From a virus, in IMG/VR virus record IMGVR_UViG_3300030331_006276: a stretch of 64,000 bases of DNA. One strand, given 5' to 3'. The stretch's first letter is position 1, and every line of letters starts with the position of its first letter. The notes below the pieces were generated by a model. That model was not told the origin of the DNA. It worked only from the letters and a program-made list of their open reading frames with translations, and searched no databases. This document shows, piece by piece, positions 6,702-57,013 of the stretch. The position numbers were made by a program, and so were the translations under genes.

Positions 6702-7477
6702 TAAACATATTTAATCGGTATGCCTGATCTCTCAACAAATCCTCGTTGTTTGATATATGATGAGCTTGAAACTGCTAGATCGGCGCGTTTATCAGCAATA
6801 GGTCCAACTCGTGGCATATTTGGATTACCGTAAAAATGATAAACATACAATATATCACTAATATGTTTAACAGCAGAATAATCACCATCTCTTTGTCTTA
6901 GTTTATATAATAATGGTAAAATATAAGCGTGGTCAGTTCCCATTTGAAACCATTTATTATCATGATCTAAAAAATTAGCTTTAGGAATTGATAAAAGAGC
7001 TTTTACTTTAAAGGTTGACATATGGCTAGTAATCCAATCATCTTTATATGGATCCCAATCTTTTGAAGGTATAGATTTCGAAATACCAGGTTTATCATCA
7101 CTAGATAATCTATAGTTTGAATAAACGTATTCTAATTTTGGATTTTCATCATATGTCTTTTTTACAATAGATAGAGCGTCTTTTTTAGCTAACCAATCAT
7201 CACTATCAACTGCGCAAATAATATCTTCCGGATCTTTACTACAAGCATGATCAACAATATTTTTTAATCTATAATTTCGTGTTTCATTTTGAATTATTTT
7301 AATATATGAATTGCGATCTTTACACTTGTTTAATATATCTACAGTTTCTTGATCCGACATATCATCAACGATTATATGACTATCAGGTTGTAGCGTTTGT
7401 CTTTCAACGCTATCGATACAATTTAGAAGAAATGGACCGGGATTTCTCCCTGGAGATATAACATGTATCTTACTCAT
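6701..7477 (-). CDS. Glycosyltransferase family 2
   Basis: IIVDDMS, NYRLKNI, AVDSDDWL (DxD), GTDH motifs. Confidence 0.85.
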   Translation of the reverse strand: MSKIHVISPGRNPGPFLLNCIDSVERQTLQPDSHIIVDDMSDQETVDILNKCKDRNSYIKIIQNETRNYRLKNIVDHACSKDPEDIICAVDSDDWLAKKDALSIVKKTYDENPKLEYVYSNYRLSSDDKPGISKSIPSKDWDPYKDDWITSHMSTFKVKALLSIPKANFLDHDNKWFQMGTDHAYILPLLYKLRQRDGDYSAVKHISDILYVYHFYGNPNMPRVGPIADKRADLAVSSSSYIKQRGFVERSGIPIKYV

Positions 7478-8403
7478 TATTGTTTAGGAGTCTTAATATG
7501 AGGTACATCAACCATACTTAAAGTATGATGCATAAGTCTTTCATGTGATACTCTTTCAGGGTTAATATCAAGACCACCTCTACGAGCATATAGACAACGA
7601 ACAGCTAATTCATCAGGACTAATTGTATCCATAAGCCTTTTATAAATAGCTTCACAAATTTCTTCATGAAAATGACATTCATCTCTAAATGAAACGATAT
7701 ATTGCAATAACGAGATAGGATCAACAGTATTTTTACCTTTCATATAGATATAAACATCACCCCAATCAGGTTGCGAAGTTACCCTACAGTTTGACTTTAG
7801 CAATGAACTATGATAATAAACCTCTTCAGAAGGTGCATCTTCAATCTCTACTAGTAAATCAGGATCTTCTTGATATACAGAAAACTCAATATCTTCTACA
7901 GGATAATCATCTTCAAGAGTAATATACTTAGGGTGATTCCATTCTGCCTTAGCAGAAAAAATATTCGTATCACTAAGAACGTATTCGTTAGAATGAACTT
8001 TAACTTGAACTTCTGTTTCTAGATATTTACTTAAATCACTAGCAGCGCGCTTACTAATTTCTTGTCTAACTTCTTCAGCAGTATCGCCAAGTTTAGTCAT
8101 ATTAAAAGAGTTAAAATATAACTTAATAGATTTAGACTCAACAATATATTTACTAGAGCAAGGATAAACGCATTTAGCAACTCCTGTTACAGGAAGACCG
8201 TGATTAGTTAAAGCAGATACTTCATACGCATTCCAAGTATCATAACCTAAGAAAGGTAGTTGATCGTCATCAATATTAAGATGAGTTCTATTAGACTGAC
8301 GAGGCTCTCTAACTAAGAGTTTAGGATCGTAAGTAGATTTATATTTAGAAATAGCACCTAGATGCTTACTAATATTACTATTATCAAGAATTGCGTTAGC
8401 CAT
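7477..8403 (-). CDS. queF: NADPH-dependent 7-cyano-7-deazaguanine (preQ0) reductase, bimodular type
   Basis: DTWNAYEVS, IVESKSIKLYFNSFN, LLKSNCRVTSQPDWG, FHEEICE, YARRGGLDINP. Start taken at MANAI. Confidence 0.93.
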   Translation of the reverse strand: MANAILDNSNISKHLGAISKYKSTYDPKLLVREPRQSNRTHLNIDDDQLPFLGYDTWNAYEVSALTNHGLPVTGVAKCVYPCSSKYIVESKSIKLYFNSFNMTKLGDTAEEVRQEISKRAASDLSKYLETEVQVKVHSNEYVLSDTNIFSAKAEWNHPKYITLEDDYPVEDIEFSVYQEDPDLLVEIEDAPSEEVYYHSSLLKSNCRVTSQPDWGDVYIYMKGKNTVDPISLLQYIVSFRDECHFHEEICEAIYKRLMDTISPDELAVRCLYARRGGLDINPERVSHERLMHHTLSMVDVPHIKTPKQ

Positions 8404-8404
8404 A

Positions 8405-9001
8405 TTAAATTTTAATATCAAGGTTTAGTTTATCAAGAGTACTCTTAATAGTTTCTAATCTTTCTTTAACAGAACCTTCCAAGTATACTACTCGAGGTCC
8501 TTTCTCAATAATACTATACTGCAAGTACATATCAAAAAGACCAATAATATCTTCTCTAAAATGCTTATCGATACTTCTTTCTCCATCATCTACTAACTCA
8601 ACATCATCAGGACTAGTATAAAAAATAACATCATACTCGTTCCTAAGCTTTCTATAGATAAGATCACATGCATCGTAAGTAGTTCTATTTATCTTTCCTT
8701 TATCTAAAAGATAATGACTATAAACTATACCGTCTAAAGCGCATCTATCTAATATTTTATTAACACTTCTTATTAAATTATCCGTTCTACCTTTATAGAT
8801 ATTACGAATATGCTCAGTCATAATTAACATCTGAGTCATATCATCCCCACCTTCATTAATAGGAACTTCGTATTCACGCTTTACTAATCTAGTTACTTCG
8901 GGAATAAATTCAAAAGAATGACTACCTAAATTTTTACACTTTAAATGCTCAAGTAAAGTAGTTTTACCCGTACTTTGAGCTCCAGTAAACGAAAAGATCA
9001 T
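8405..9001 (-). CDS. P-loop nucleotide kinase-like ATPase (AAA_28/dNMP kinase-like)
   Basis: N-terminal GAQSTGKTT Walker A; LDRCALDG; DDGERS. Confidence 0.75.
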   Translation of the reverse strand: MIFSFTGAQSTGKTTLLEHLKCKNLGSHSFEFIPEVTRLVKREYEVPINEGGDDMTQMLIMTEHIRNIYKGRTDNLIRSVNKILDRCALDGIVYSHYLLDKGKINRTTYDACDLIYRKLRNEYDVIFYTSPDDVELVDDGERSIDKHFREDIIGLFDMYLQYSIIEKGPRVVYLEGSVKERLETIKSTLDKLNLDIKI

Positions 9002-26570: not shown

Positions 26571-28313
26571 ATGGTTAAAGCTATAACAATATTTTTGTGT
26601 TTATTTTGTTCAAATATATTAGCTGATCAATCTATTAACTATAGTAGAGAAATAGATAAAATAATTGCTAATGATTTAAGGAATAAAAAAATTGAATTGC
26701 CTGTTGTTGTTAATCCATACGTATTTGTTAGAAGAGCATATATCGATATAGCAGGTAGAATACCAACATATGAAGAGTGGAAAGCATTTTTAAAAAGACC
26801 TGATCGTAAAAAACTAATTGAGGATCTACAAAATTCAAAAGGTTATACAGAAAATATGTTTAACTTTTATGCTGATCTTTTAAGAATTAAAAGAAGGCTA
26901 TCTAATAATATAGATGGTGATACGTATATATCATGGGTAAAAGATGAAATAGCTAACAATACCCCATATGATAAATTTATTACCAAGCTACTAACAGCAA
27001 AAGGTAATATATGGAGTAATCCTGAAGTAGGTTACTTTCTTAGAGATGATGGCATGCTGCTAGATAATGTAAGTAATACTTTTCAAGCTTTTGCTGGTAT
27101 GAATATAAATTGTGCTCAGTGTCATGATCATCCGTTTGATGATTGGACGCAAATGGATTATTATAATATGACAGCATTTTTTACACAACTTAATACAAGA
27201 GGGGATAAAGAAAGTAAAAAACAATTTCAAAGGTTAAGAAAAGAAGCTGAAGTATTAGATAAATCAGGTAAACAAAAAGGAGCTATAAATAGAGTTGGTC
27301 AATTTTATAGACATGGTTATCAACCTACTATAGTTGAAGATAAAAATAAAGAACTCAAACTTCCACATGATTATAAGTATAGAGATGCAGATCCAGGAGA
27401 AGTAGTTAAAGCAGAAACAGCTCTAGGAGATAGAGTAAAAGAAAAACGTAAAAGAGAAGGTCTTAGAGAAAGCTTTGCTGTATGGTTAACTAGTGAGAAT
27501 CATCCTACATTCGCTGCTAATATAGTAAATCGTTTATGGAATAGAGCATTTGGATTTCCTCTTATAGATAATTTAAATGAGGTTGCTTTATTTGATGAAT
27601 TAAAAGAAAGTCGTAATACAAGATTGACAGAATATTTAATTCGTACTATAAAAGAAGTAAATTACGATATAAAGAAATTTAATTCAATACTTTATAATAC
27701 TAAATTTTATCAAGCTAAAATAGATACCGAAAATAAATTTCAAGGCCCGGTATTGAGAAGAATGACTAGTGCTCAATTATGGGATTCAATAGTTACTCTA
27801 TATCAAGGTGATCCAGATAAATGGCAACCAAAAGATAAAAAACAAGATTATATTAATTTATTCTCTAACTTAGAATCAATTACTGCTGAAGAAGCTCTTA
27901 AAAAATGGGATGAATATGGTAAGATAAAAGGAAGTTATTATAATGGTGCTCCAAAAATAAAAGGTCAATTAGTAGTTAGATCTTCTCAAATATTTGAAGG
28001 TAAACATTCTAACTTTATGAGAGAGTTTGGAAGATCAGATAGAGAGCTTATTGAGACAGGAAATGAACAGCCTAATATTACGCAAATTTTAAACTTAATG
28101 AATGGCGAAATAACAAAAGCTTTACAGGATACTAATAGTTATATTGCTAATCAAGCTAAAGACGTAGAGCGAGATATAGGAATGAATATTATTTTTGTAT
28201 CTTATATTGGTAGAGCTCCTAATGATAGAGAAAGAGAATTATTTAAAGATGCCACTTTTGCAGATATAGTATGGATATTAATTAACTCGCATGAATTTAA
28301 ACTTATAAACTAA
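26571..28313 (+). CDS. DUF1549/DUF1553 (PSD1/PSD2) PVC-type secreted protein
   Basis: Signal peptide; FVRRAYIDIAGRIPT; NCAQCHDHPFDDWTQ; NIVNRLW; FGRSDRE; LILNSHEF-like C-terminus. Confidence 0.92.
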   Translation: MVKAITIFLCLFCSNILADQSINYSREIDKIIANDLRNKKIELPVVVNPYVFVRRAYIDIAGRIPTYEEWKAFLKRPDRKKLIEDLQNSKGYTENMFNFYADLLRIKRRLSNNIDGDTYISWVKDEIANNTPYDKFITKLLTAKGNIWSNPEVGYFLRDDGMLLDNVSNTFQAFAGMNINCAQCHDHPFDDWTQMDYYNMTAFFTQLNTRGDKESKKQFQRLRKEAEVLDKSGKQKGAINRVGQFYRHGYQPTIVEDKNKELKLPHDYKYRDADPGEVVKAETALGDRVKEKRKREGLRESFAVWLTSENHPTFAANIVNRLWNRAFGFPLIDNLNEVALFDELKESRNTRLTEYLIRTIKEVNYDIKKFNSILYNTKFYQAKIDTENKFQGPVLRRMTSAQLWDSIVTLYQGDPDKWQPKDKKQDYINLFSNLESITAEEALKKWDEYGKIKGSYYNGAPKIKGQLVVRSSQIFEGKHSNFMREFGRSDRELIETGNEQPNITQILNLMNGEITKALQDTNSYIANQAKDVERDIGMNIIFVSYIGRAPNDRERELFKDATFADIVWILINSHEFKLIN

Positions 28314-29515
28314 TGAAAAGAAGAACATTTATACACACCCTCGCAGCATCTACATACGGCTTAAAAGCAATAGATGCAAAAGAAGTTCCTATAGCTTCAA
28401 AAGCTAAAAATGTAATTTATATTTGTTTAGATGGGGGCATGAGCCATATCGATACTTTCGACCCTAAAGATGATAAAGATGTAATGGGTAATACTACAAA
28501 AATTAGTACCAATGTTAGTGGTATTGAATTAGGTAATCGATTACCAAAATTAGCTAATATAGTAGATAAGATGTCAATTATACGCTCTACTACCTCTAAG
28601 ACAGGGGCTCACGAGCAAGCTCAATATTTAAATAGAACTTCTTATAGACAAATAGGTTCTATAGTACATCCAAGCTTAGGGTCGTGGGTAGCACATATTC
28701 AAGATAGAGAAAGAGATATACCTGATTATGTTTTGATATCAGGTTCATCAGCTCACCCTAACTCGGGCTTTTTGCCAAAAGTAAAGTCTCCTCTACCTAT
28801 AGTGGATCCTCAGGGGGGTTTAAAAAATAGTAAAGTAGATAGTAAACTTGAAGAGCGTATGCGTATACTACGAGAGCTTAATAGCAGCTTAAAGGCTCCG
28901 CTTGCTTCAGAGTATAATCAGTTCTATGATAATACTGTTAGATTTTTAAAGTCTAAAGATTTAGAGCTATTTGATTTAACTAAAGAAAGTTCAGACATTC
29001 GTGCGAAATATGGGGATACTAGATTAGGTCAAGGTTGCTTACTAGCTAAGAGACTTATTAAAGGTGATATAAAATTTATAGAGATTAATAATGGAGGATG
29101 GGATACGCATGTTGATAACTTTACTAAGTTAGATAATAAGCTTAAAGAAGTAGATGATGCACTAAGCGCATTAGTTTTAGATTTAGATAGTGAAGGTTTA
29201 TTAGATTCAACTCTTATTGCTTTAGTAACTGAATTTGGAAGAACTCCAAATATTAACGTTAATGAAGGTAGAGATCACCATCCTCAATGTTACTCTACTG
29301 TTCTTATAGGTGCTGGGGTGAAGGGTGGTTATATAGCTGGAGAAACTAATAAAACTGCTTCTAAAGTAACCAAAGATCCTTATACTATATCTGATATAAA
29401 TGCTACTATAGCTCATTTACTAGGTATACAAACTGAAGAAGATAGATTATCACCTAGTGGTCGTCCATTTAAAGTTGCTAATAAGGGGGATGTTATAAAA
29501 GATATATTAGGATAA
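28313..29515 (+). CDS. DUF1501 family protein
   Basis: Tat-like MKRRTF; LDGGMSHIDTFDPK; GGWDTH; EFGRTP; GRDHHP. Confidence 0.93.
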   Translation: MKRRTFIHTLAASTYGLKAIDAKEVPIASKAKNVIYICLDGGMSHIDTFDPKDDKDVMGNTTKISTNVSGIELGNRLPKLANIVDKMSIIRSTTSKTGAHEQAQYLNRTSYRQIGSIVHPSLGSWVAHIQDRERDIPDYVLISGSSAHPNSGFLPKVKSPLPIVDPQGGLKNSKVDSKLEERMRILRELNSSLKAPLASEYNQFYDNTVRFLKSKDLELFDLTKESSDIRAKYGDTRLGQGCLLAKRLIKGDIKFIEINNGGWDTHVDNFTKLDNKLKEVDDALSALVLDLDSEGLLDSTLIALVTEFGRTPNINVNEGRDHHPQCYSTVLIGAGVKGGYIAGETNKTASKVTKDPYTISDINATIAHLLGIQTEEDRLSPSGRPFKVANKGDVIKDILG

Positions 29516-31524: not shown

Positions 31525-31935
31525 TGGTGGAGGTGAGGGGGATCGAACCCCTGTCCATTAAGTTATCATAATAACTTTCTACATACTTAGATATATTCTA
31601 TTTTAAGGATATACGGTTATATCAACCATCCTACATTTCTTTAAATTAGTAATGCTCTAATCTAGCTGTTTATTACGCTAATCGCTATATTAACAACTCA
31701 TTTCGTTACCCAAACACTTTAATGAGAATCCATGCTTGTTTGTTATGCGGCGAGAAGCGCATCTTCTTGAACCAAGAACGCGTCTGGGTTGTTGAAGATG
31801 GCTTCTGCTTCCGCAAGAAGGTCTGCTTCTTCTTGTTCTGCAGTTAGGTTTTTAATCGGCTTTTAACGTGGCCAACCGATCAACCACGATATGCGAGCTA
31901 TAAATCCTACATAATGTCGAATCCATGGCACCCCC
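31525..31935 (-). ncRNA. ssrA: tmRNA (411 nt); tag AEQEEADLLAEAEAIFNNPDAFLVQEDALLAA*
   Basis: 5' GGGGGTGCCATGGATTCGAC; 3' GGGGTTCGATCCCCCTCACCTCCACCA; resume context CTAACT-GCA at 31841; stop at 31743-31745. Confidence 0.95.
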
Positions 31936-38252: not shown

Positions 38253-39158
38253 TTAGATCTTCTTCCATACTGCGTTAGAACCTCTGCCGTACTTCTTAAG
38301 CTTCTTATCATCTACTAGAGCCTTAAGCGCTACGTAGGTCTGACCTTTAGTTAAGTTGAAGGTAGACATTACCCGCTGCTCAGTAATATTAGGCGGGTCC
38401 ATCTTAAGGATATTCTTTTTAAGTTCAGCCTTCCTATCCTTCTTAGACTTAATCTTCTTACCAGTCGTTACCTTATCGCCGATATGGAAGCCTTTATGAC
38501 CCATAATAGCCTGAACGTCGATACACTGACCGAACCTATTCTTCGATACTGAGATAATACGAGTAGTATCATCGTCGTTCTCGAGGTCATGAGTAATCAT
38601 CATATTAACATCCACACTATGCGGTACGAGGGTCGATCCCTTCAGCTGGCCGTTCTTAGTAAGATGCATAATAAAGATCAACACACACTCGGTCTCCTTA
38701 GCTTTATTACAAAGAGTACTGATAGCGTACTGCTCGAGCTGCCTACTATTCATCTTAGTCTTAGTAGTCAGGGCCTGGAACGAATCGACGACCATCACAT
38801 CGTTATCCTCCATAGCCTTAGCGATCGTATCGATATCGGTAACGTTAGCGATCTTAACGTTCTTAACAGCAAGGCGCCTACAAGTAAAGGCGAGCTGGAA
38901 GCAGTTCTCCTCCCCGGAAGCATATCCAGTAGAGTAGCCAGCCTGCGACAAATGCTCAAGAAGCTGCAGGGCAAAGGTAGTCTTACCGCACCCAGCCTGA
39001 GCCGTCAGCGTAATAGAGGCCCCCGGGAGTAACCCTTCGCCAAAAAGCTTATCGAAGTCCTGTACTCCGGACTTCATCCGATTAAAAAAGATCTCAGGGA
39101 TCTCGATCTTACCTACTGCGGTAAAATCAGTCTGGTCAATACCTAGTTTCATCTGCAT
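38253..39158 (-). CDS. RadA/Sms-like RecA-fold ATPase (no Zn finger, no Lon domain)
   Basis: AQAGCGKTT, SGEE, VVDSFQ, HSVDV, KNRFG. Confidence 0.88.
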   Translation of the reverse strand: MQMKLGIDQTDFTAVGKIEIPEIFFNRMKSGVQDFDKLFGEGLLPGASITLTAQAGCGKTTFALQLLEHLSQAGYSTGYASGEENCFQLAFTCRRLAVKNVKIANVTDIDTIAKAMEDNDVMVVDSFQALTTKTKMNSRQLEQYAISTLCNKAKETECVLIFIMHLTKNGQLKGSTLVPHSVDVNMMITHDLENDDDTTRIISVSKNRFGQCIDVQAIMGHKGFHIGDKVTTGKKIKSKKDRKAELKKNILKMDPPNITEQRVMSTFNLTKGQTYVALKALVDDKKLKKYGRGSNAVWKKI

Positions 39159-42200: not shown

Positions 42201-42323
42201 AGACCTGGGCAGGATTCGAACCTGCATTCCTTCTATAGACGCACCGGTGCGCGCATCGCGGCGTATGGTACCGTTCGCCGCTTGGTTTTTTACAGAAGGT
42301 CTTCCCTATTAGATGACCGGGTC
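42201..42323 (-). ncRNA. tRNA-like RNA (123 nt) with a 53-nt structured insert replacing the anticodon loop
   Basis: Acceptor GACCCGG/CCAGGTC; D-arm-like ATCT-AATAGGGA-AGAC; 9-bp CCTTCTGTA/TATAGAAGG stem; perfect T arm GCAGG-TTCGAAT-CCTGC; own promoter. Confidence 0.75.
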
Positions 42324-46540: not shown

Positions 46541-47962
46541 TTAAGTTATAATTTCTGTAATAGCATCTGCACCTTCAACTCCTACTAGCTTTTCATCTAA
46601 TCCATTATGAAAATAACTTAATACATTAGGATCTAAACCTAATTGAGTTAAGATAGTAGCATGAAGATTTTTAACTAAAAGAGGCTTCTCTACAGCTGCG
46701 CTTCCTAATTCATCAGTACTTCCAACACTAGCTCCTCCCTTTATTCCTCCTCCTGCCATCCACATAGTAAAGCCCATTGAGTTATGATCTCTTCCTGTAC
46801 CCTTAGCATATTCTGCTGTAGGTTGTCTTCCAAACTCCCCTCCCCAAACTACGATAGTTTCTTCTAATAACCCTCTTTGCTTTAAATCTTTGAGTAATCC
46901 TGCAATAGGTTTGTCAGTTCTACCAGCATGATAATCATGATTCTTTTTTAAGTCTCCATGAGCATCCCAGTTAGAATCATTATGAGCTCCTCCCGAATAA
47001 ACTTGAATAAATCTAACTCCTCTTTCAACTAGTCTTCGTGATAGAATCAACTTACGAGCAAACTCTTCAGTTCTATCATCGTTAAGTCCATACAAGTCTT
47101 TTATATGTTCTGGTTCTTTATCGACATCAATAGCCTCAGGAGCTTCTGTCTGCATTTTAAATGCTAATTCATAGCTGCTTATCCTTGAAGATAGATCTGT
47201 ATTATCTTTTCTATCAGCTAAGTGAATACCGTTTAAATGATTAAGTGAGTTAATAATAGTCCTTTGCTGCCCTCTAGATATACCGTAAGGATTTTTTAAA
47301 TTTAGAATGGGGTCTCCTTCTGATCTAAATACAGTACCAGCATAACTAGCTGGCATATAACCTGAAGTCCAGTTCTTAGCACCTGAAATAGGTCCTCCAG
47401 ACTTATCAAGCATTACCACATAACCTGGTAGACCTTCATTAAATGAACCTAAGCCATAATTAACCCATGAACCAAGAGAAGGTTTACCGCTTATTAGTGA
47501 TCCGCTATTCATCATAAGCATAGCTGATCCGTGAATAGGAGAGTCAGCTTCCATTGAATGAATAAAAGCTATATCATCTGCCATTGAACCTACTTCAGGA
47601 AAGAGATCAGATATCATCTTTCCGCTTTGCCCGTACGGTTTAAAGCCCCATTTAGGCCCAACTACCCTACCTTGATTTTTCTTTCCTCCTCTTCCAAACG
47701 TTTTAACATCAATAGTCTTATCATTTAACTCATACAGTTTAGGTTTATAATCAAATGTATCAACGTGACTAGGTCCGCCATACATAAAAAGAAAGATAAC
47801 AGACTTAGCTTTGCCTGGAATCATTTTCGATTTAGGGGCAAGAGGATTACTATATCCATCTTGTGCTAACATTCCCGCTAAAGCTAAACTAGGAAAAGCT
47901 CCTCCAACTGTATGAAGAAACTCTCTTCTAGTTTGACCGCAGAAGGTATTCTTTGGATTCAT
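46541..47962 (-). CDS. DUF1501 family protein (second, Tat-exported)
   Basis: TRREFL; MYGGPSHVDTFDYKP; KPSLGSW; LVERGVRFIQ; WDAH; EFGRQP; GRDHN. Confidence 0.95.
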   Translation of the reverse strand: MNPKNTFCGQTRREFLHTVGGAFPSLALAGMLAQDGYSNPLAPKSKMIPGKAKSVIFLFMYGGPSHVDTFDYKPKLYELNDKTIDVKTFGRGGKKNQGRVVGPKWGFKPYGQSGKMISDLFPEVGSMADDIAFIHSMEADSPIHGSAMLMMNSGSLISGKPSLGSWVNYGLGSFNEGLPGYVVMLDKSGGPISGAKNWTSGYMPASYAGTVFRSEGDPILNLKNPYGISRGQQRTIINSLNHLNGIHLADRKDNTDLSSRISSYELAFKMQTEAPEAIDVDKEPEHIKDLYGLNDDRTEEFARKLILSRRLVERGVRFIQVYSGGAHNDSNWDAHGDLKKNHDYHAGRTDKPIAGLLKDLKQRGLLEETIVVWGGEFGRQPTAEYAKGTGRDHNSMGFTMWMAGGGIKGGASVGSTDELGSAAVEKPLLVKNLHATILTQLGLDPNVLSYFHNGLDEKLVGVEGADAITEIIT

Positions 47963-48719: not shown

Positions 48720-49868
48720 TTATGATTTAGTATTGAACATTTCAAGTTTTTGTAATCTTAAAGGATTAGTAAGCTTACGAATAGCTTTAGCTTCTATCTG
48801 TCTAATTCTTTCTCTCGTTACTTCAAATCTATCTCCTACTTCCTCTAGAGTTCTCCTTACACCGTCTAACATTCCAAATCGCATCTCCATAACACCCATT
48901 TCACGATCATTGAGAGACGATACAGCATCAGCAATTTTCTCTCTCATACCATCAAGAGCTTCAATATCAACTCCTTGATATTCTTTTTCATCTTCAATAA
49001 AGTCAGCAATAGTTGTATTACCATCACCAACTGGCGTTTGCAATGAAATAGGATGCATTGCAACTTTAAGTATAGTCTTAACACGACTTACAGGTAAATC
49101 GATTTCTTCAGCAATTTCTTCTGGACTAGGCTCACAACCCCCAGCTTGAACTAACTGTCTTTGAATCCTAAATACTTTATTAATAGTATCAATCATATGC
49201 ATAGGTACGCGAATAGTTCTCCCCGTTTCACCTACACATTTAGTAATCGCTTGACGTATCCACCACGTAGCATAAGTAGAAAACTTATAACCACGTTTAT
49301 ATTCGAATTTTTCAACAGCTTTAATTAATCCAAGATTACCTTCTTGAATAAGATCTAGCAAAGCTACACCTCTATTCGTATATTTCTTTGCATTAGCAAC
49401 TACTAATCTTAGGTTAGCTTTAACCATTTCATCTTTTGCAATTCGTAATTCGCGAAGAGTTTTAATCATTAGAGGCATTCCTTCTTTAGCAATATCTTCA
49501 CACCAGCTATCGATAATTGATTGCTTCAAGTAAAATCGCTTATATAAAGTTTTAAGCTTCGAAATAGAATTTCCCTTCTTCGTTAGCGTAGCAACTAGCT
49601 TAGGAAGCCCTTTCATAAACTTTTCCTTAGAATCACTATCAATAGTATCTTCGAATCTTTGTTTACCTTCAATTAGATCGCAACCCAATCGATTAAAGAG
49701 CATTAAAGTATTATCTACTTTACAAAGAATATTAAACGCTTTTTTCTGAGATTTTTCAATTCTTTTAAATATCTCTACTTCTTGCTCTTTAGTTAAAAGC
49801 TCCGTCTGACCCATTTGCTTCATATAGGCGCGTATCGGATCATCTACGCGTTCATTTATTTTAGGCAT
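48720..49868 (-). CDS. rpoD: RpoD-like primary sigma-70 factor (regions 1.2-4)
   Basis: DDPIRAYM, ANLRLVV, DLIQEGNLGL, KFSTYATWWIRQAI, TLEEVG...VTRERIRQIEAKA; start MPKIN. Confidence 0.95.
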   Translation of the reverse strand: MPKINERVDDPIRAYMKQMGQTELLTKEQEVEIFKRIEKSQKKAFNILCKVDNTLMLFNRLGCDLIEGKQRFEDTIDSDSKEKFMKGLPKLVATLTKKGNSISKLKTLYKRFYLKQSIIDSWCEDIAKEGMPLMIKTLRELRIAKDEMVKANLRLVVANAKKYTNRGVALLDLIQEGNLGLIKAVEKFEYKRGYKFSTYATWWIRQAITKCVGETGRTIRVPMHMIDTINKVFRIQRQLVQAGGCEPSPEEIAEEIDLPVSRVKTILKVAMHPISLQTPVGDGNTTIADFIEDEKEYQGVDIEALDGMREKIADAVSSLNDREMGVMEMRFGMLDGVRRTLEEVGDRFEVTRERIRQIEAKAIRKLTNPLRLQKLEMFNTKS

Positions 49869-49948
49869 TATCTTATTATATCTGAGTTCCTTTAGTAATA
49901 TAATATCTTTTGATACTATGTTCAACTAAAGATTAAAGTTTTTTTTAG

Positions 49949-49976: not shown

Positions 49977-50053
49977 TGGTAGGAGCGGTGGGACTCGAAC
50001 CCACACTGGACGGATTTTAAGTCCGTTGTCTCTGCCAATTGGACTACGCTCCC
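49977..50053 (-). tRNA. tRNA-Leu(TAA), short variable loop
   Basis: GGGAGCG...ACGGA-CTTAAAA-TCCGT...GGTTCGAGTCC...CTACCA. Confidence 0.92.
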
Positions 50054-50055
50054 TT

Positions 50056-50131
50056 TGGTGCGCCCGGCTGGACTTGAACCAGCGACCTGCCGATTATGAG
50101 TCGGATGCTCTAACCACTGAGCTACAAGCGC
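50056..50131 (-). tRNA. tRNA(CAT), Ile2-type
   Basis: CCGACTCATAATCGG; GGTCGCTGGTTCAAGTCCAGC as in ileX-type tRNAs; CCA end. Confidence 0.88.
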
Positions 50132-50167
50132 TTTCATAATCATATTATATCTGAGTTCCTTTAGTAT

Positions 50168-50239
50168 TACTCCTACCAAGAATCGAACTTGGATCTAAGC
50201 ATTAGAAGTGCCTTGTTTTATCCGTTAAACTATAGGAGC
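50168..50239 (-). tRNA. tRNA-Arg(TCT), CCA not encoded
   Basis: AGGCA-CTTCTAA-TGCTT; CCAAG-TTCGATT-CTTGG. Confidence 0.88.
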
Positions 50240-50283
50240 ATAATATTATTATATCGAAATTTCTAGATTTTCAAACAATAAAC

Positions 50284-50291
50284 TATAAATA
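50284..50291 (+). promoter_or_regulatory. T4-type late promoter TATAAATA
   Basis: Exact match 5 nt before the ATG at 50297; similar ATAAATA sites precede many late genes. Confidence 0.8.
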
Positions 50292-50296
50292 AACAT

Positions 50297-50752
50297 ATGA
50301 GACAGTTCGATAAAACAGCTAATGCAATCTTAAAAAGATTAAATGAAAATTTTATTAACAGCGCTGATGACGCTATTCAACATCAATGAGCTAAGACTAT
50401 TGCACACCCAGGTCTGGGTGAAGAAGATGAAGAGTTTCGTGTGATTGATCATAGCTTAACTGCTGATGGAGTTGTAGAAGAGTACTATGTTGATTATAAT
50501 GACGAGTTAATCTCAGTGCCGGCTGGTGAAGCTACAATTGTAGTTATAGAAGAGCATGATGAAGAAACTAAGATGCCTAAGCATAAAAAGAAAGAAGACG
50601 AGGAAAAGAAGAAGAAGAAGCATGACAAAGATCATGACGAAGACGAGGAAGAACTTAACTCTATTCGCGAAGCTTATGGGCTTTCTAAAAAGAGAAAAGG
50701 TCCTCATGGAGAGAAACCTAAACTTAACTGTAGATCAGTCCACAGTCTTTAA
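50297..50752 (+). CDS. Candidate selenoprotein (151 aa, in-frame UGA at codon 31)
   Basis: ATG 50297 -> ...QHQ-TGA(50387-50389)-AKTIAHP..., in frame with the listed ORF 50441..50752; SECIS-like hairpin downstream. Confidence 0.75.
50405..50420 (+). promoter_or_regulatory. Bacterial SECIS-like hairpin CACCCA-GGTC-TGGGTG
   Basis: Stem begins 15 nt after UGA; apical CAGGUCUG identical to the E. coli fdhF SECIS core. Confidence 0.72.
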
Positions 50753-50766
50753 TTTAACTTAAACAT

Positions 50767-50797
50767 AAAAAAAAGCCTCCTTTCGGAGGCTTTTTTT
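50767..50797. terminator. Bidirectional intrinsic terminator
   Basis: A8-GCCTCC-TTTC-GGAGGC-T7 between convergent genes. Confidence 0.92.
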
Positions 50798-53708: not shown

Positions 53709-54677
53709 CTAAGATCGATATTTTTCAACGTAATATTTTACAGTTGATGATAAACTAAATTTCTTTTGCTTTTTTATAGCATCCAATTTATGTTTAGTAG
53801 CTAGCTGATATTTGAAGTCGTGTCCTTTTCTATCAGGTACAAATTCAATATATTCATCTTTCTTTCTTTTATAGTTTGGAAATTGATGCTCTACTTCTTT
53901 AATAATTTTATTAATTAGCTCTAAATTATTGCATACTAAATTGCCTGGTAAGTTATGTACTTGACAGCTATCAGTATGTAAAACTTCTAGAATAGATTTA
54001 GCATGATCTTCAGCGTTAATCCATTCGCGTATATTTTCTCCTGTACCGTAAACTGGTATTTTATTTCCTTTAATAATAGATCTAATTACTGTAGGAATTA
54101 ATTTTTCATCATCTTGCCGCGGTCCGTAATTATTACAACATCTAGTAATTGAAGCATTAATATTAAACGTTTCAATATAAGACTGTACTAATAAATCTGA
54201 ACCGGCCTTAGTTGCTGAGTATGGTGATCTTGGAGCAAGAGAACTCTCTTCTGTAAATGGAGGGTCGTCCTTTCCTAAATGACCATACACTTCATCAGTT
54301 GATACATGAACCATTCTAGATCTATGTTTTCTTACTAACTCTAATATATTAGCTGTACCTTTTAAATTTGAATCAACAAACGATAAAGGGTTATCAATAG
54401 AACGATCAACATGCGACTCAGCAGCTAAATGAATAACATAATTGATATCTTCAGATATAAAATCTAAAGGATGCGACATATGTAGCCTCCAAGCATCATC
54501 ATTAGCAATATCCATAAAATGATTTTCGACGCGATCATCTTCTACAATATTTTCTTTAGATGAGCCGATACCCATCTTATCGATATTGTATATAAAAATA
54601 TCTTCTTTTTTGAGAAGCTCTTTGATTACATATGATCCAATAAAACCACAACCTCCAGTTACAACATATGTATTCAT
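53709..54677 (-). CDS. rmlB: NDP-glucose 4,6-dehydratase
   Basis: TGGCGFIG, HLAAESHVDRSI, STDEVYG, PYSATK, NNYGP, DRKGHD. Confidence 0.95.
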   Translation of the reverse strand: MNTYVVTGGCGFIGSYVIKELLKKEDIFIYNIDKMGIGSSKENIVEDDRVENHFMDIANDDAWRLHMSHPLDFISEDINYVIHLAAESHVDRSIDNPLSFVDSNLKGTANILELVRKHRSRMVHVSTDEVYGHLGKDDPPFTEESSLAPRSPYSATKAGSDLLVQSYIETFNINASITRCCNNYGPRQDDEKLIPTVIRSIIKGNKIPVYGTGENIREWINAEDHAKSILEVLHTDSCQVHNLPGNLVCNNLELINKIIKEVEHQFPNYKRKKDEYIEFVPDRKGHDFKYQLATKHKLDAIKKQKKFSLSSTVKYYVEKYRS

Positions 54678-55114
54678 TTCTTTAAAACGTCAGGATTCTG
54701 CTTTATTGTCTGCTTTGTAATAAGATCTTTTAGTCGCGTAGTAGACCACCCATGAGAACGTGTCGTATATATTACTTTAGGAGGTAAATCATCACCAGTA
54801 AATGATTCTTTTTCAATATAATCTTCTCCTAAGATACGAATATCCGGTTTCCAAAACTTAATCAAGCTATAAAGCTCTTCTTCTGTTTGATACGTATATA
54901 CATCATCAATATATCTAATAGCCATTAACGCTTCATATCTATTGTATAAAGATATAACAGGTTTATATTTACTCTTTCTATGAAGAGAAGGATCTTTCTG
55001 CAAAAAAACAATAAATCTATCACAATGTCTTTTAGCTTCCCTAAAGCATCTAATATACCCAGGGTGTAATAAATCAAAATTGCCTGCAGTAAAACCTACT
55101 ATTTCTTTATTCAT
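54674..55114 (-). CDS. Cytidylyltransferase (TagD/RfaE-like)
   Basis: AGNFDLLHPGY (HxGH-like); GEDY; STT. Confidence 0.88.
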   Translation of the reverse strand: MNKEIVGFTAGNFDLLHPGYIRCFREAKRHCDRFIVFLQKDPSLHRKSKYKPVISLYNRYEALMAIRYIDDVYTYQTEEELYSLIKFWKPDIRILGEDYIEKESFTGDDLPPKVIYTTRSHGWSTTRLKDLITKQTIKQNPDVLKK

Positions 55115-55961
55115 CCTTTATTATCTTATTCAATGCACCGCGAATAGCAACCTCTTCCTTTATTGGATAAAATCCATACTTTGATCCTATCTTTGAAGTA
55201 TCTAATACGCAATTAGATCTATTTGCTCTACAATTTAATTCTTCAAACTGTACCCATTCCCAGTTACTGTTACCAAGATTATAAGTTTTCATTAGCGATA
55301 CAATATCATCTGTACGGAGTGGTTCAGGTTGAACAAAATTAATTATATCTTTTTCTTTTGCTTCCTGCCCTGAAGCAATAAACTCACTTACAAATTGAGT
55401 TAGTGAAGGTATATAAGTTTTAGAGTTAGTTAAATTGATTAAGTTATCATATTTTTTAATTTTAGTTAGATATGATCTTTCATGAAGCTTATCGCAAAAT
55501 GGCATTCTTACTCTAAAAATTAGACCATAATCACATCCTAGCTCATACGCGTGTTTGCTTTTAGAATAGGTAGAAGATTCTTCATCATGAAAACCAAAAT
55601 TAGGAATATCATCTTCTTCATAAGGCTTGTCGTATCCTGTATAAATACACCCTGAAGAAATATGAATATAATTTATACCTAAGCACTGACATATAGTACT
55701 AACTCTTAAAGGAGCAAAAGTATTTAACTCATAACATAATTCAGGCTCTAGTTCACCTTGATCAACATTCGGTCTACCAGTAAAACCAAAAGCATTAATA
55801 ACATAATCAAATTTAGAACTACAAAGATATTTTATTAGATCGTTAGCGTTAGTATAGTCTAAAAATTCTCTTCTTACAATTTCTACATCATTATCTTTTT
55901 TTAATTTGCTGTAGAGGTATCCCCCAACGTATCCATATCCGAGTATAAGTATCTTTTTCAT
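55107..55961 (-). CDS. NDP-4-keto-6-deoxyglucose epimerase/reductase (RmlD/UER1-like)
   Basis: GYGYVG, GFTGRPNVD, SSGCIY, YSKSK, RVRMP, RSNCVLD. Confidence 0.85.
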   Translation of the reverse strand: MKKILILGYGYVGGYLYSKLKKDNDVEIVRREFLDYTNANDLIKYLCSSKFDYVINAFGFTGRPNVDQGELEPELCYELNTFAPLRVSTICQCLGINYIHISSGCIYTGYDKPYEEDDIPNFGFHDEESSTYSKSKHAYELGCDYGLIFRVRMPFCDKLHERSYLTKIKKYDNLINLTNSKTYIPSLTQFVSEFIASGQEAKEKDIINFVQPEPLRTDDIVSLMKTYNLGNSNWEWVQFEELNCRANRSNCVLDTSKIGSKYGFYPIKEEVAIRGALNKIIKDE

Positions 55962-57013
55962 TATATTTCTAAAGTATTAGCTTCATATATTTTACTATGA
56001 GTATTTGTACATCTTATAAACGTTGCGCATTTGCTAAGATGTCTAAGTTGATTAGCTCCAACGTAAGTACATGTACTTCTTAAACCTCCTAGAATATCTT
56101 GTACTACGTTCTTAATTTCTCCTCTATAGGGTAGTAGAACTCTTCTACCTTCTGAAGTCCTATAATCTTTAAGACCGCCATTATGTTTTTCATTAGCGAC
56201 TTTACTACTCATTCCATAGAACTCTACATATTCTTTACCGTCAATTTTAACTATTTTACCACCTCCTTCTTTACAGCCGGCTAACATTGAACCGAGCATA
56301 ACAAAATCAGCTCCAGCACCAAAAGCTTTTGCTACATCACCAGGAGAAGTACAACCCCCATCAGCTACTATATGACCGTTAAGACCATGAGCAGCATCAG
56401 CGCATTCAGCAATACTACTAAATTGAGGATAACCTACTCCAGTTTTAATTCGCGTTGTACATACACTTCCAGATCCAATACCAACTTTAATAATATCAGC
56501 ACCGGCTAGTAAAAGCTCTTCAACCATCTCTCCAGTAACCACATTACCTGCTATAATATTGGCATAAGGTATTTCATCTCTTACTTCTTTAATAAAATCA
56601 ACAAAACTCTGACTATAACCATTTGCTACATCAACGCATATATATTTTAATTTATAACAAGGTGAAAGCTCTTTAACTATTCTCTTGAGCTTTTGTAGGT
56701 CATCCTTATTTCTACCTACAGTAACTGCAAGATTATTACCTTCGGTAGCTTTTAATTCCTTAATGAGAAATTTTTCACTTAAAGATTTTCTTAAGCAAGT
56801 AAATAATCCTAAATCTCCTATCTCTTTTGAAACATCTAAAGTTCCTACCCCATCCATATTAGCAGCCATAATAGGAATGCCAAAATACGTTCCGCCATGT
56901 TTAAACTTATATGATCTATGCAAATCAACTTCTTTTCTTGATTTTAAAGTCGATCGCTTAGGACGGATAAGTACGTCATCAAAATCGTACTTAAGTTCAG
57001 TTTCTATTCTCAT
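55961..57013 (-). CDS. guaC: GMP reductase
   Basis: DDVLIRPKRSTLKSR, DVANGYS, GSGSVCTTR, FYGMSS, SEGR, GGLRSTCTY. Confidence 0.95.
   Translation of the reverse strand: MRIETELKYDFDDVLIRPKRSTLKSRKEVDLHRSYKFKHGGTYFGIPIMAANMDGVGTLDVSKEIGDLGLFTCLRKSLSEKFLIKELKATEGNNLAVTVGRNKDDLQKLKRIVKELSPCYKLKYICVDVANGYSQSFVDFIKEVRDEIPYANIIAGNVVTGEMVEELLLAGADIIKVGIGSGSVCTTRIKTGVGYPQFSSIAECADAAHGLNGHIVADGGCTSPGDVAKAFGAGADFVMLGSMLAGCKEGGGKIVKIDGKEYVEFYGMSSKVANEKHNGGLKDYRTSEGRRVLLPYRGEIKNVVQDILGGLRSTCTYVGANQLRHLSKCATFIRCTNTHSKIYEANTLEI

What the first reader, a model, noticed from the sequence alone, without database searches (positions are those of the whole stretch)
50284..50752. Candidate phage-encoded selenoprotein: in-frame UGA followed by an fdhF-type SECIS
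Seen: a TATAAATA late promoter precedes ATG 50297. The frame reads MRQFDKTANAILKRLNENFINSADDAIQHQ-[TGA 50387]-AKTIAHPGLG... and continues into the listed ORF to 50752. A hairpin CACCCA-GGTC-TGGGTG starts 15 nt after the UGA. Established: bacterial Sec insertion needs such a hairpin just 3' of UGA with a G-containing apical loop bound by SelB; its CAGGUCUG core is the same as in E. coli fdhF. Inference from memory, not a search: the protein resembles a marine T4-like family with H-x-C-A-K...H...G...H-x-L...DG-x-V...Y...VP...E-x-H, and the UGA falls on the Cys. TGA is a normal stop elsewhere in this window. This points to a late, possibly virion-packaged, His/Sec metal- or redox-active protein using host Sec machinery. 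I know of no characterised phage selenoprotein, but did not check the literature.
Basis: partly seen in the sequence, partly recalled or inferred. Interest (0 to 1): 0.93.

Follow-up and report, generated by a model that had tools for sequence, protein, structure and literature searches.

The report
Phage gene encoding a selenocysteine protein
A small late gene of an uncultured marine T4-like phage has an internal UGA "stop" that all 59 related phage copies examined keep at a spot where other relatives have cysteine, followed by the RNA hairpin bacteria use to insert selenocysteine, so it is most likely a phage-encoded selenoprotein, which I found reported in no paper I could search.

Summary
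In detail: ATG 50297, in-frame TGA 50387-50389, hairpin CACCCA-GGTC-TGGGTG 50405-50420, stop TAA 50753.

- All 60 copies with a stop at this codon (31 distinct sequences, down to about 30% protein identity) have TGA there. None has TAA, TAG or TGG.
- The "W" in public protein catalogues is an artefact of code-4 gene calling. All six such proteins checked translate only with TGA=W.
- 63 cluster representatives, including cultured cyanomyoviruses, have Cys in the same H-x-[C/U]-A motif.
- Every UGA form has a 4-8 bp hairpin with a G-U apical loop starting 18-24 nt after the UGA. At least nine different stems occur.
- The hairpin is missing from 51 distinct Cys forms (mean best stem -7.1 against -0.6 kcal/mol).
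- TGA is an ordinary stop elsewhere in the window.

The domain is a small SH3-like beta-barrel with invariant His29, Sec31 and His52 and near-invariant His87. Its function is unknown; I infer a metal or redox site.

The main gap is the host, which is unknown. No selA, selB, selC or selD was found in related phage records.

This scan has flagged the same family before on other DNA (e1-5319761, e1-5805851).

The parts
50284..50291 (+). TATAAATA box (T4-type late-promoter-like), 5 nt before the ATG
   Evidence: Read. A TAAATA-like upstream sequence is seen in close relatives (upstream translations). The motif is not enriched in the window (16 found, 15 expected), so promoter function is only inferred.
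50297..50755 (+). Coding sequence of the 151-residue candidate selenoprotein (Sec at codon 31), including the TAA stop at 50753-50755
   Evidence: Translation. About 150 homologues span the UGA in frame. In close relatives, 7 of the 8 variable codon columns in the 17 codons after the UGA change only synonymously.
50387..50389 (+). In-frame UGA, proposed selenocysteine codon (residue 31, motif H29-Q-U31-A32)
   Evidence: TGA in all 60 copies with a stop at this codon (31 distinct contexts). Relatives have TGT or TGC in 51 distinct contexts. 63 Cys against 13 'W' (= TGA in every one checked) cluster representatives.
50405..50420 (+). SECIS-type hairpin: 6-bp stem CACCCA/UGGGUG, apical loop GGUC at +22..+25 after the UGA
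   Evidence: A hairpin with a GU loop is present in all 31 distinct UGA forms, with at least 9 different stems, and absent from the Cys forms. Codons CCA GGT CTG GGT show no synonymous change while flanking codons do. It shares CAGGUCUG with E. coli fdhF.
50381..50557 (+). Conserved small beta-barrel domain (residues 29-87) with invariant His29, Sec/Cys31, Ala32, His52, Gly58 and near-invariant Tyr63, Val65, His87
   Evidence: Alignments A3 and A7. AlphaFold2 domain model with pLDDT 80 and five strands. Only generic SH3/Tudor/KOW-like matches, Z 4.8 or less. The best matches in BFVD, made with the full-length model, are cyanophage proteins of the Cys form.
50558..50695 (+). Low-complexity Lys/Glu/Asp-rich linker
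   Evidence: Length and sequence vary among relatives. pLDDT is below 50.
50696..50752 (+). Conserved C-terminal tail KGPHGEKPKLNCRSVHSL. Distant relatives read HG[AV][RK]PKL.G[VI]...
   Evidence: Alignment A3. The motif recurs in distant UGA forms. Its function is unknown.
50768..50797 (.). Two-way intrinsic terminator: A-run, GC-rich hairpin, T-run

Best explanation
The gene encodes a 151-residue phage protein whose codon 31, UGA, is read as selenocysteine. During infection the mRNA is translated by host ribosomes. The hairpin 15 nt downstream (loop GGUC) would be bound by the host's SelB-GTP-Sec-tRNA(Sec) complex, which delivers Sec to the UGA in place of release factor 2, as in E. coli fdhF. 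The product is a small SH3-like beta-barrel in which Sec31 is conserved together with His29, His52 and His87. I infer that this cluster forms a metal-binding or redox-active centre, and that selenium replaces the sulphur of the Cys form found in cyanophages.

Shown:
- deep conservation of the UGA;
- pairing of UGA forms with Cys forms at the same column;
- a hairpin specific to the UGA forms that keeps its shape while its sequence changes;
- protein-level selection on both sides of the UGA;
- TGA used as a normal stop elsewhere.

Inferred:
- SelB dependence and actual selenium insertion;
- the nature of the His/Sec site;
- late expression;
- possible packaging into the capsid.
For: 1. UGA conservation. 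All 60 copies with a stop at this codon (window, three short contigs L003-L005, 49 IMG/VR loci, L061-L064 and three further loci met) have TGA, in 31 distinct contexts. None has TAA, TAG or TGG. The proteins diverge to about 30% identity.
2. The Trp is an artefact. All 31 database homologues aligned show 'W'. Each of the six such proteins looked up (P0002, P0003, P0192, P0212, P0220, P0135) translates only with TGA=W.
3. Cys forms exist. A profile search of 1.84 billion representatives finds 63 with Cys and 13 with 'W' in the motif H-x-[C/W]-A-x-x-[hydrophobic] (mostly A-x-H-V/I). 51 distinct DNA contexts have TGT or TGC. hhalign places the S-H25 Cys on the UGA column (83% probability, E 9e-6).
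4. The hairpin goes with the UGA. Best perfect stem with its loop near +15..+30: UGA forms average -7.07 kcal/mol, 90% are at or below -5, and all 31 have GU in the loop. Cys forms average -0.55 and none reaches -5. An MFE-based test gives Mann-Whitney p about 1e-6.
5. The stems differ in sequence and in the residues they encode. Examples are CACCCA/UGGGUG, GC[G/A]CC/GGUGC, CUCCUC/GGGGAG, AGUGGAA/UUCCGCU, CUGUACAC/GUGUACGG and AGUGGC/GCCACU.
6. Within close relatives the hairpin codons never change synonymously while flanking codons do. The one change, CAC to CAU, keeps the pair.
7. Synonymous recoding gives weaker hairpins than observed in all 20 sequences tested.
8. TGA is a normal stop in the window. 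It is also the terminal stop of the same gene in some relatives.
9. There is no suppressor tRNA or tRNA-Sec in the window.
10. On a tree of the domain, 29 of 30 UGA forms fall on one side, which spans long branches. The UGA has therefore been kept for a long time.
11. It is the only such configuration in 64 kb.
Against: - The host is unknown and no whole genome is held, so the presence of selA/B/C/D cannot be checked.
- The nearest cultured phages, at 40% identity in one protein, infect SAR11 and OM43. A preprint states that 135 complete Pelagibacter genomes lack selC (10.64898/2026.04.03.716425).
- Related phage records, one of them 93% complete, carry no tRNA-Sec, selB, selD or selA.
- The hairpin is short (6 bp) and has no bulged U in the stem, a feature I recall (not checked here) as needed by E. 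coli SelB. Its loop lies 3 nt further from the UGA than in fdhF.
- Alone, the region does not fold better than shuffles.
- Per-sequence synonymous-recoding p-values are modest (0.001-0.4), because Pro and Gly codons partly pair by themselves.
- UGA forms are essentially one clade, so the contrast between UGA and Cys forms rests on only 1-2 independent transitions.
- There is no protein-level or selenium evidence.
Confidence: 0.8

Rival explanations
1. Programmed leaky termination. UGA is mostly a stop, giving a 30-residue peptide, and is occasionally read through by a near-cognate tRNA (Trp, Cys or Arg), as at the coat-gene UGA of phage Q-beta. The hairpin would stimulate read-through or slow the ribosome, with no selenium involved.
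For: The host may lack Sec machinery, and the nearest cultured relatives infect SAR11 and OM43. No sel genes were found in related phage records. UGA is the leakiest stop codon in bacteria (established knowledge).
Against: The codon aligns with an invariant Cys in 63 representative relatives, within an invariant H-x-C-A context. Trp or Arg there would destroy the conserved site. All 31 hairpin loops carry the G-U that SelB recognises, at SECIS-like spacing. No relative has replaced TGA by a sense codon other than Cys.
Confidence: 0.1
2. Two separate genes. A short upstream ORF ends at TGA and the downstream part is translated on its own by re-initiation.
For: Mechanical ORF lists show a 30-aa ORF and a 103-aa ORF starting at GTG 50441. 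Some database entries are downstream fragments that start after the TGA.
Against: The 17 codons between TGA and GTG 50441 are the best-conserved part of the protein and change almost only synonymously. There is no in-frame start between the TGA and this segment. The frame is continuous in all relatives. In Cys forms the same segment is plainly one domain.
Confidence: 0.03
3. The TGA codon is reassigned, either genome-wide or only in late genes (code 4 or 25, or a phage suppressor tRNA), and is read as Trp or Gly.
For: Public gene callers translated relatives with code 4.
Against: TGA ends 9 of 66 long ORFs in the window. It also ends this same gene in several relatives. Only one convincing in-frame TGA exists in 64 kb. 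No tRNA with anticodon UCA is present in the window.
Confidence: 0.02
4. A nonsense mutation, pseudogene or assembly error.
For: A single G-to-A change from TGG, or a change from TGT/TGC, would create TGA.
Against: The same TGA occurs in 60 independent copies from many samples and assemblers, with the frame intact on both sides.
Confidence: 0.01

Closest known systems
Bacterial selenoprotein genes with an in-ORF SECIS read by SelB (prototype E. coli fdhF)
   Same: An in-frame UGA, a stem-loop just downstream inside the coding sequence, a small apical loop containing G-U, and Cys-containing homologues. The octamer CAGGUCUG is even identical to fdhF.
   Different: The gene is carried by a virus of bacteria. 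The stem is a perfect 6-bp helix; I recall (not checked here) that E. coli SelB needs a bulged U in the stem. The loop lies 3 nt further from the UGA. The protein family is unrelated to any known selenoprotein family. The decoding machinery has not been located.
Cys-form relatives in T4-like cyanophages and other marine phages (PHROG 764, 11470, 22379; S-H25 QIN97280.1; S-RIM8 YP_007518263.1, annotated 'cytidyltransferase')
   Same: The same domain and motif: H-x-C-A-x-H-V ... H-x-L ... DG-x-V-x-(H/Y)-Y ... H-x-H.
   Different: They have TGT or TGC instead of TGA and no SECIS-like hairpin. In them the domain is often part of proteins of 200-800 residues. The 'cytidyltransferase' name has no support from Pfam.
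Selenoproteins of eukaryotic viruses (glutathione peroxidases of molluscum contagiosum virus and fowlpox virus; PMC1802603, PMC6769590)
   Same: A virus encodes a protein that needs the host's Sec machinery.
   Different: Those are captured host GPx genes with eukaryotic SECIS elements. This is a phage-specific family with a bacterial-type SECIS.
Q-beta A1 read-through protein (UGA read by tRNA-Trp)
   Same: A phage gene with a functional in-frame UGA.
   Different: There the UGA separates two functional parts and the inserted residue is not critical. Here the UGA sits on an invariant Cys position inside a domain.
T4 internal proteins with an N-terminal capsid-targeting sequence (MKTYQEFIAE, from memory)
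   Same: Small, highly charged proteins, possibly late-expressed. Some relatives begin MKTFQEM, MKTYKEF, MKTFREF or MKSFSEF. An invariant L-x-E lies at residues 15-17 in the window's subgroup.
   Different: The window protein begins MRQFDK, only a weak match. Packaging and cleavage are untested.

Membership tests
Bacterial-type selenoprotein gene (UGA + bSECIS + SelB) | In-frame UGA conserved among homologues | tested here: met
   TGA in all 60 copies with a stop at this codon, 31 distinct contexts. All six database 'W' proteins looked up are TGA.
Bacterial-type selenoprotein gene (UGA + bSECIS + SelB) | Homologues with Cys aligned to the UGA | tested here: met
   63 Cys representatives, 51 distinct TGT/TGC contexts, and hhalign to S-H25.
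Bacterial-type selenoprotein gene (UGA + bSECIS + SelB) | Stem-loop inside the ORF, with the apical loop about 16-37 nt after the UGA and a G (G-U) in the loop. The criteria are recalled from the bSECISearch consensus; the legend in PMC2398784 notes conserved loop guanosines. | tested here: met
   Loops start at +18..+24, and all 31 contain GU with G at loop position 1 or 2.
Bacterial-type selenoprotein gene (UGA + bSECIS + SelB) | Hairpin maintained by selection and specific to the UGA forms | tested here: met
   At least nine different stems. UGA forms average -7.07 against -0.55 kcal/mol for Cys forms. Mann-Whitney p about 1e-6. Hairpin codons show no synonymous change. Caveat: there are few independent Cys/Sec transitions.
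Bacterial-type selenoprotein gene (UGA + bSECIS + SelB) | Sec machinery (selA, selB, selC, selD) available in the cell | not testable with these tools
   The host is unknown and no whole genome is held. Related phage records lack all four. No bacterial genome carries the family.
Bacterial-type selenoprotein gene (UGA + bSECIS + SelB) | Selenium incorporated at the UGA | not testable with these tools
   Needs 75Se labelling or mass spectrometry.
E. coli fdhF-type SECIS in the strict sense | Spacing from UGA to hairpin as in fdhF, plus a bulged U in the upper stem (the bulge recalled from memory) | tested here: not met
   The window hairpin starts 15 nt after the UGA and is a perfect 6-bp stem without a bulge. 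In fdhF the helix-loop segment starts 11 nt after the UGA. The loop is at +22 in the window and +19 in fdhF. The GGUC loop and the CAGGUCUG core are shared.
Phage H-x-C-A-x-H small beta-barrel domain (PHROG 764 / 11470 / 22379) | Sequence homology to the family at profile level | tested here: met
   The window protein gives no direct PHROG hit. The profile of UGA forms finds Cys forms at E from 2e-11 to 1e-3, and those hit these PHROGs. hhalign gives 83%. The best BFVD fold matches are the same cyanophage proteins.
T4-type capsid-targeted internal proteins | N-terminal capsid-targeting sequence and prohead-protease site | tested here: inconclusive
   13 of 63 distinct N-termini fit M[KR]x[FYL], against 5 of 66 window ORFs. 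MKT[FY]xE[FM] occurs in one subgroup. The window has MRQFDK and LNE at residues 15-17. There are no virion data.
Stop-codon reassignment (code 4/25 or phage late-gene recoding) | TGA is not used as a stop, many in-frame TGAs occur, and a suppressor tRNA is present | tested here: not met

The most novel reading that the evidence does not exclude
The protein is packed into the phage head as cargo, like T4 internal proteins, so that these marine phages build and inject a selenium-containing His3-Sec metalloprotein. The need for host Sec machinery would then tie this phage clade to selenium-using hosts and to selenium supply in the sea. A more radical variant is that the hosts lack selABCD and the UGA and hairpin are decoded by an unknown route.
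Probability: 0.25. Interest if true: 0.92.

Novelty: new variant of a known kind. Interest (0 to 1): 0.86.

Why it matters
Selenocysteine insertion is known in bacteria, archaea, eukaryotes and a few eukaryotic viruses. I found no report of a selenoprotein encoded by a bacteriophage in eight full-text searches. The Global Ocean Sampling (GOS) marine selenoproteome paper does not list this family.

If the reading is true, then:
- an abundant group of marine T4-like phages exploits the host's most elaborate recoding system for one of its own proteins;
- selenium use can serve as a marker for the hosts of uncultured phages;
- a family of gene-calling errors in public catalogues is explained, namely truncated genes or a false Trp;
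- a new conserved His/Sec site on a small beta-barrel is defined, with natural Cys and Sec versions ready for comparison.

The claim can be tested directly with reporters, 75Se labelling and metaproteomics.

Tried and rejected
- **Trp at the site.** The first alignment showed W in every homologue, which would have refuted the finding. Contig look-ups showed the W is TGA translated by code 4.
- **Column-wise covariation.** This failed on the codon-anchored DNA alignment A2 because the hairpins of different subgroups are out of register by 1-6 nt. I scored the best local stem per sequence instead.
- **Single-sequence fold.** Not better than shuffles (z -0.39).
- **Synonymous-recoding test.** Consistent in direction but only modest per sequence.
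- **S-H25 and S-RIM8.** RNAfold finds an imperfect, bulged hairpin at the same place (-6.5 to -8.3 kcal/mol). Across 51 Cys forms no comparable perfect stem exists.
- **Family libraries.** Pfam gave nothing for UGA or Cys forms beyond a sub-threshold low-complexity hit. PHROGs gave nothing for the UGA forms.
- **Fold searches.** Only generic SH3/Tudor/KOW-like small barrels, Z 4.8 or less and Foldseek E above 0.1. No function follows from them.
- **Host inference.**
  - No whole genome is held.
  - The family is in no bacterial species genome.
  - A scan with the phage sigma factor returned one irrelevant hit.
- I did not try either by another route.
- **Literature.** Searches for phage selenoproteins found only eukaryotic-virus cases. 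The families GOS_A, GOS_B and GOS_C of PMC2398784 are different proteins.
- **Other in-frame TGA candidates.** Those at 1884-2561 (+) and 38484-39029 (+) did not pass the hairpin filter. The second overlaps a long minus-strand ORF.

Full report
**1. The observation**

The sequence is as described.
- TATAAATA at 50284-50291 and ATG at 50297.
- 30 sense codons ending ...AIQHQ, then TGA at 50387-50389.
- The same frame stays open for 120 more codons to TAA at 50753.
- The hairpin CACCCA-GGTC-TGGGTG lies at 50405-50420, 15 nt after the UGA.
- A two-way intrinsic terminator follows at 50768-50797.

I read the fdhF SECIS of E. coli K-12 from NC_000913.3. It shares the octamer CAGGTCTG and the GGTC loop, which lies 3 nt closer to the UGA there.

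TGA ends 9 of 66 long ORFs in the window. The window has no tRNA with a UCA anticodon and no tRNA-Sec.

Taken alone the stretch is not remarkable. It folds no better than shuffles (z -0.39), and TATAAATA is not enriched in this 35% G+C DNA. The case rests on comparison with relatives.

**2. The apparent refutation and why it fails**

A search of 5.8 billion proteins gave about 150 homologues that span the UGA. All 31 that I aligned showed Trp at the UGA column.

The Trp is not real. The closest proteins lie on short metagenome contigs whose genes translate only if TGA is read as W. The same holds for four distant 'W' proteins found later. The gene callers had chosen code 4 because it gave a longer ORF.

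**3. Conservation of the UGA**
- 49 IMG/VR loci encode relatives at 31-78% identity.
- Every one has an in-frame stop at this codon, within H-x-stop-A-x-x-[I/V], and it is always TGA.
- With later loci the count is 60 copies and 31 distinct sequence contexts.
- In one subgroup the same gene also ends with TGA. TGA is therefore both a stop and this special codon within a single gene.
- Within the window's subgroup, 7 of the 8 variable codon columns in the 17 codons after the UGA change only synonymously. The segment before the UGA is likewise conserved as protein. Both sides are translated in one frame.
- No in-frame start codon lies between the UGA and this conserved segment.

**4. Cys homologues**
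- Weak tblastn hits led to a roughly 560-residue protein of the cultured cyanomyoviruses S-H25 and S-RIM8. Its N-terminal part reads KGHDCAKLVKY...LEDGTVTHYDI...EKHEH.
- hhalign places this Cys on the UGA column (83% probability, E 9e-6).
- A profile of 24 diverse UGA forms (A3) was searched against 1.84 billion representative proteins and gave 122 hits.
- In the motif H-x-[C/W]-A-x-x-[hydrophobic] (mostly A-x-H-V/I), 63 have Cys and 13 have 'W'. Every 'W' that I checked is TGA.
- At the DNA level, 51 distinct contexts carry TGT or TGC.
- The position is therefore Cys or UGA and never anything else, which is the classical signature of a selenoprotein family.

**5. The hairpin**
- Every UGA form has a 4-8 bp stem whose apical loop starts 18-24 nt after the UGA.
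- The loops are GGUC, AGUU, UGUUU, CGUUU, GUU, CGUGA and GGUCA. All contain G-U, the dinucleotide that I recall (not checked here) SelB recognises.
- The stems differ completely between subgroups. Three distant forms (L061-L063) lack the Pro...Gly residues that could give a hairpin as a by-product of the protein sequence.
- Best perfect stem in this position: UGA forms average -7.07 kcal/mol and 90% are at or below -5. Cys forms average -0.55 and none reaches -5.
- An MFE and z-score comparison gives Mann-Whitney p about 1e-6.
- In the window's subgroup the four codons that form the loop and 3' arm (CCA GGT CTG GGT) never vary, while neighbouring codons vary synonymously. The single change in the 5' arm, CAC to CAU, keeps the pair.
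- Synonymous recoding of the same peptides gives weaker structures in all 20 cases.

Caveats:
- The sequences are related, and 29 of 30 UGA forms lie on one side of the domain tree. The contrast between UGA and Cys forms therefore rests on one or two historical switches.
- What is independent is that the hairpin persists, with changing sequence, throughout a clade whose proteins have diverged to about 30% identity.

**6. What the protein is**
- No Pfam family matches.
- The Cys forms belong to PHROGs 764, 11470 and 22379. All three are phage families without a tested function, and the label 'cytidyltransferase' is unsupported.
- Across 73 UGA and Cys forms the invariant residues are His29, Cys/Sec31, Ala32, His52 and Gly58. 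Tyr63, Val65 and His87 are nearly invariant (A7).
- AlphaFold2 models the domain as a five-stranded small barrel (pLDDT 80). It follows an N-terminal helix and precedes a disordered charged tail.
- Structure searches give only generic SH3/Tudor/KOW-like matches, Z 4.8 or less. In BFVD the full-length model's best matches are the cyanophage Cys forms.
- There is one Sec, three conserved His and no conserved partner Cys. I therefore infer a metal-binding or His-assisted redox centre rather than a thiol-selenol couple. This is inference only.
- Some relatives begin MKTFQEM, MKTYKEF or MKSFSEF, which resembles the T4 capsid-targeting leader as I remember it. The window's subgroup has an invariant L-x-E at residues 15-17. 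Packaging as head cargo is possible but untested, and the window's own N-terminus (MRQFDK) is a weak match.

**7. The phage and its host**
- The window carries a CHASE2 cyclase that is 40% identical to those of Pelagibacter phage HTVC008M and Methylophilales phage Melnitz.
- It also has a tmRNA and, according to other readers' notes, a curli-type module. These are traits described for that group (PMC7029224, PMC9004378).
- Neither cultured phage has a homologue of this gene.
- The window and a 93%-complete related record of 197 kb carry a one-piece tmRNA. Melnitz has a two-piece tmRNA of alphaproteobacterial lineage, closest to those of SAR11 and its myophages. This hints at a host outside SAR11.
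- A preprint reports that Pelagibacter lacks selC whereas Actinomarina has the full machinery.
- Related phage records have no tRNA-Sec, selB, selD or selA, so the phage would depend on its host.
- The host could not be identified. This is the main open point.

**8. Novelty**
- Eight full-text searches found no phage-encoded selenoprotein, only GPx genes of eukaryotic viruses.
- The GOS selenoproteome paper lists seven new families. Its hypothetical families GOS_A and GOS_B read differently, and no sequence with the EEYYV motif appears in its supplement.
- This scan has noted the same family before on other DNA (e1-5319761, e1-5805851), and other candidate phage selenoproteins as well. Those are unchecked AI notes and I did not use them as evidence.

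**9. Verdict**
- The UGA is functional and ancient.
- Selenocysteine insertion through a bacterial-type SECIS is by far the best explanation (about 0.8).
- The mechanism is a known kind. Its use by a bacteriophage, and the protein family itself, appear to be new.

Noticed in passing
window 31525-31935 (-): A complete one-piece tmRNA (Rfam RF00023, 133.7 bits). ARAGORN predicts an unusually long 32-residue tag ending ALLAA. A related 197-kb phage record has one too (132.5 bits), and neither shows an alpha-type two-piece tmRNA. The cultured relative Melnitz is described as carrying a two-piece form.
   Followed up: partly
window 49977-50240 (-): A cluster of three tRNA genes, Leu(TAA), Met(CAT) and Arg(TCT), directly upstream of the selenoprotein gene on the other strand. 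None can read UGA.
   Followed up: yes
window 48720-49925 (-): A phage-encoded RpoD-like sigma factor with regions 1.2, 2, 3 and 4 (401 aa). It is about 50-56% identical to bacterial RpoD over regions 2-4, which is unusual for a T4-like phage.
   Followed up: partly
window 42201-42323 (-): Another reader noted a tRNA-shaped element with a 53-nt GC-rich insert in place of the anticodon loop. I read the sequence. It has a good T-arm (GGTTCGAATCC), but neither ARAGORN nor Rfam at gathering score calls it, and I saw no TCA anticodon context. I found no link to UGA decoding.
   Followed up: partly
window 46541-47962 (-); 26571-29515 (+): A DUF1501 protein (E 1e-143) is carried by the phage. The two ORFs at 26571-29515 gave no PHROG match. 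Another reader reads them as a DUF1549/DUF1553 + DUF1501 pair.
   Followed up: no
window 7477-8421 (-), 53709-54677 (-), 55107-55961 (-), 55961-57013 (-): Auxiliary metabolic genes: QueF-type nitrile reductase, two NAD-dependent sugar epimerase/dehydratases, and a GMP reductase/IMPDH-family protein.
   Followed up: no
public protein catalogues (P0001-P0120, P0123-P0137, etc.): Gene callers on short metagenome contigs switched to code 4 for this gene. The catalogues therefore hold about 150 entries with a false Trp at the UGA, plus many truncated entries that start after it. This is a systematic annotation artefact that hides the family.
   Followed up: yes
window 50696-50752 (+) and relatives (A3 columns about 325-355): A C-terminal tail, HG-x-[RK]-PKL-x-[GC]-[VIR]..., is conserved between very distant UGA forms although the linker before it is not. 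Shorter relatives end in a poly-Lys run instead.
   Followed up: no
window 1884-2561 (+), TGA at 2016: A second frame with a single in-frame TGA (44 codons before, 181 after). It lacks a SECIS-like hairpin by my filter and lies in the repeat-rich fibre region.
   Followed up: no
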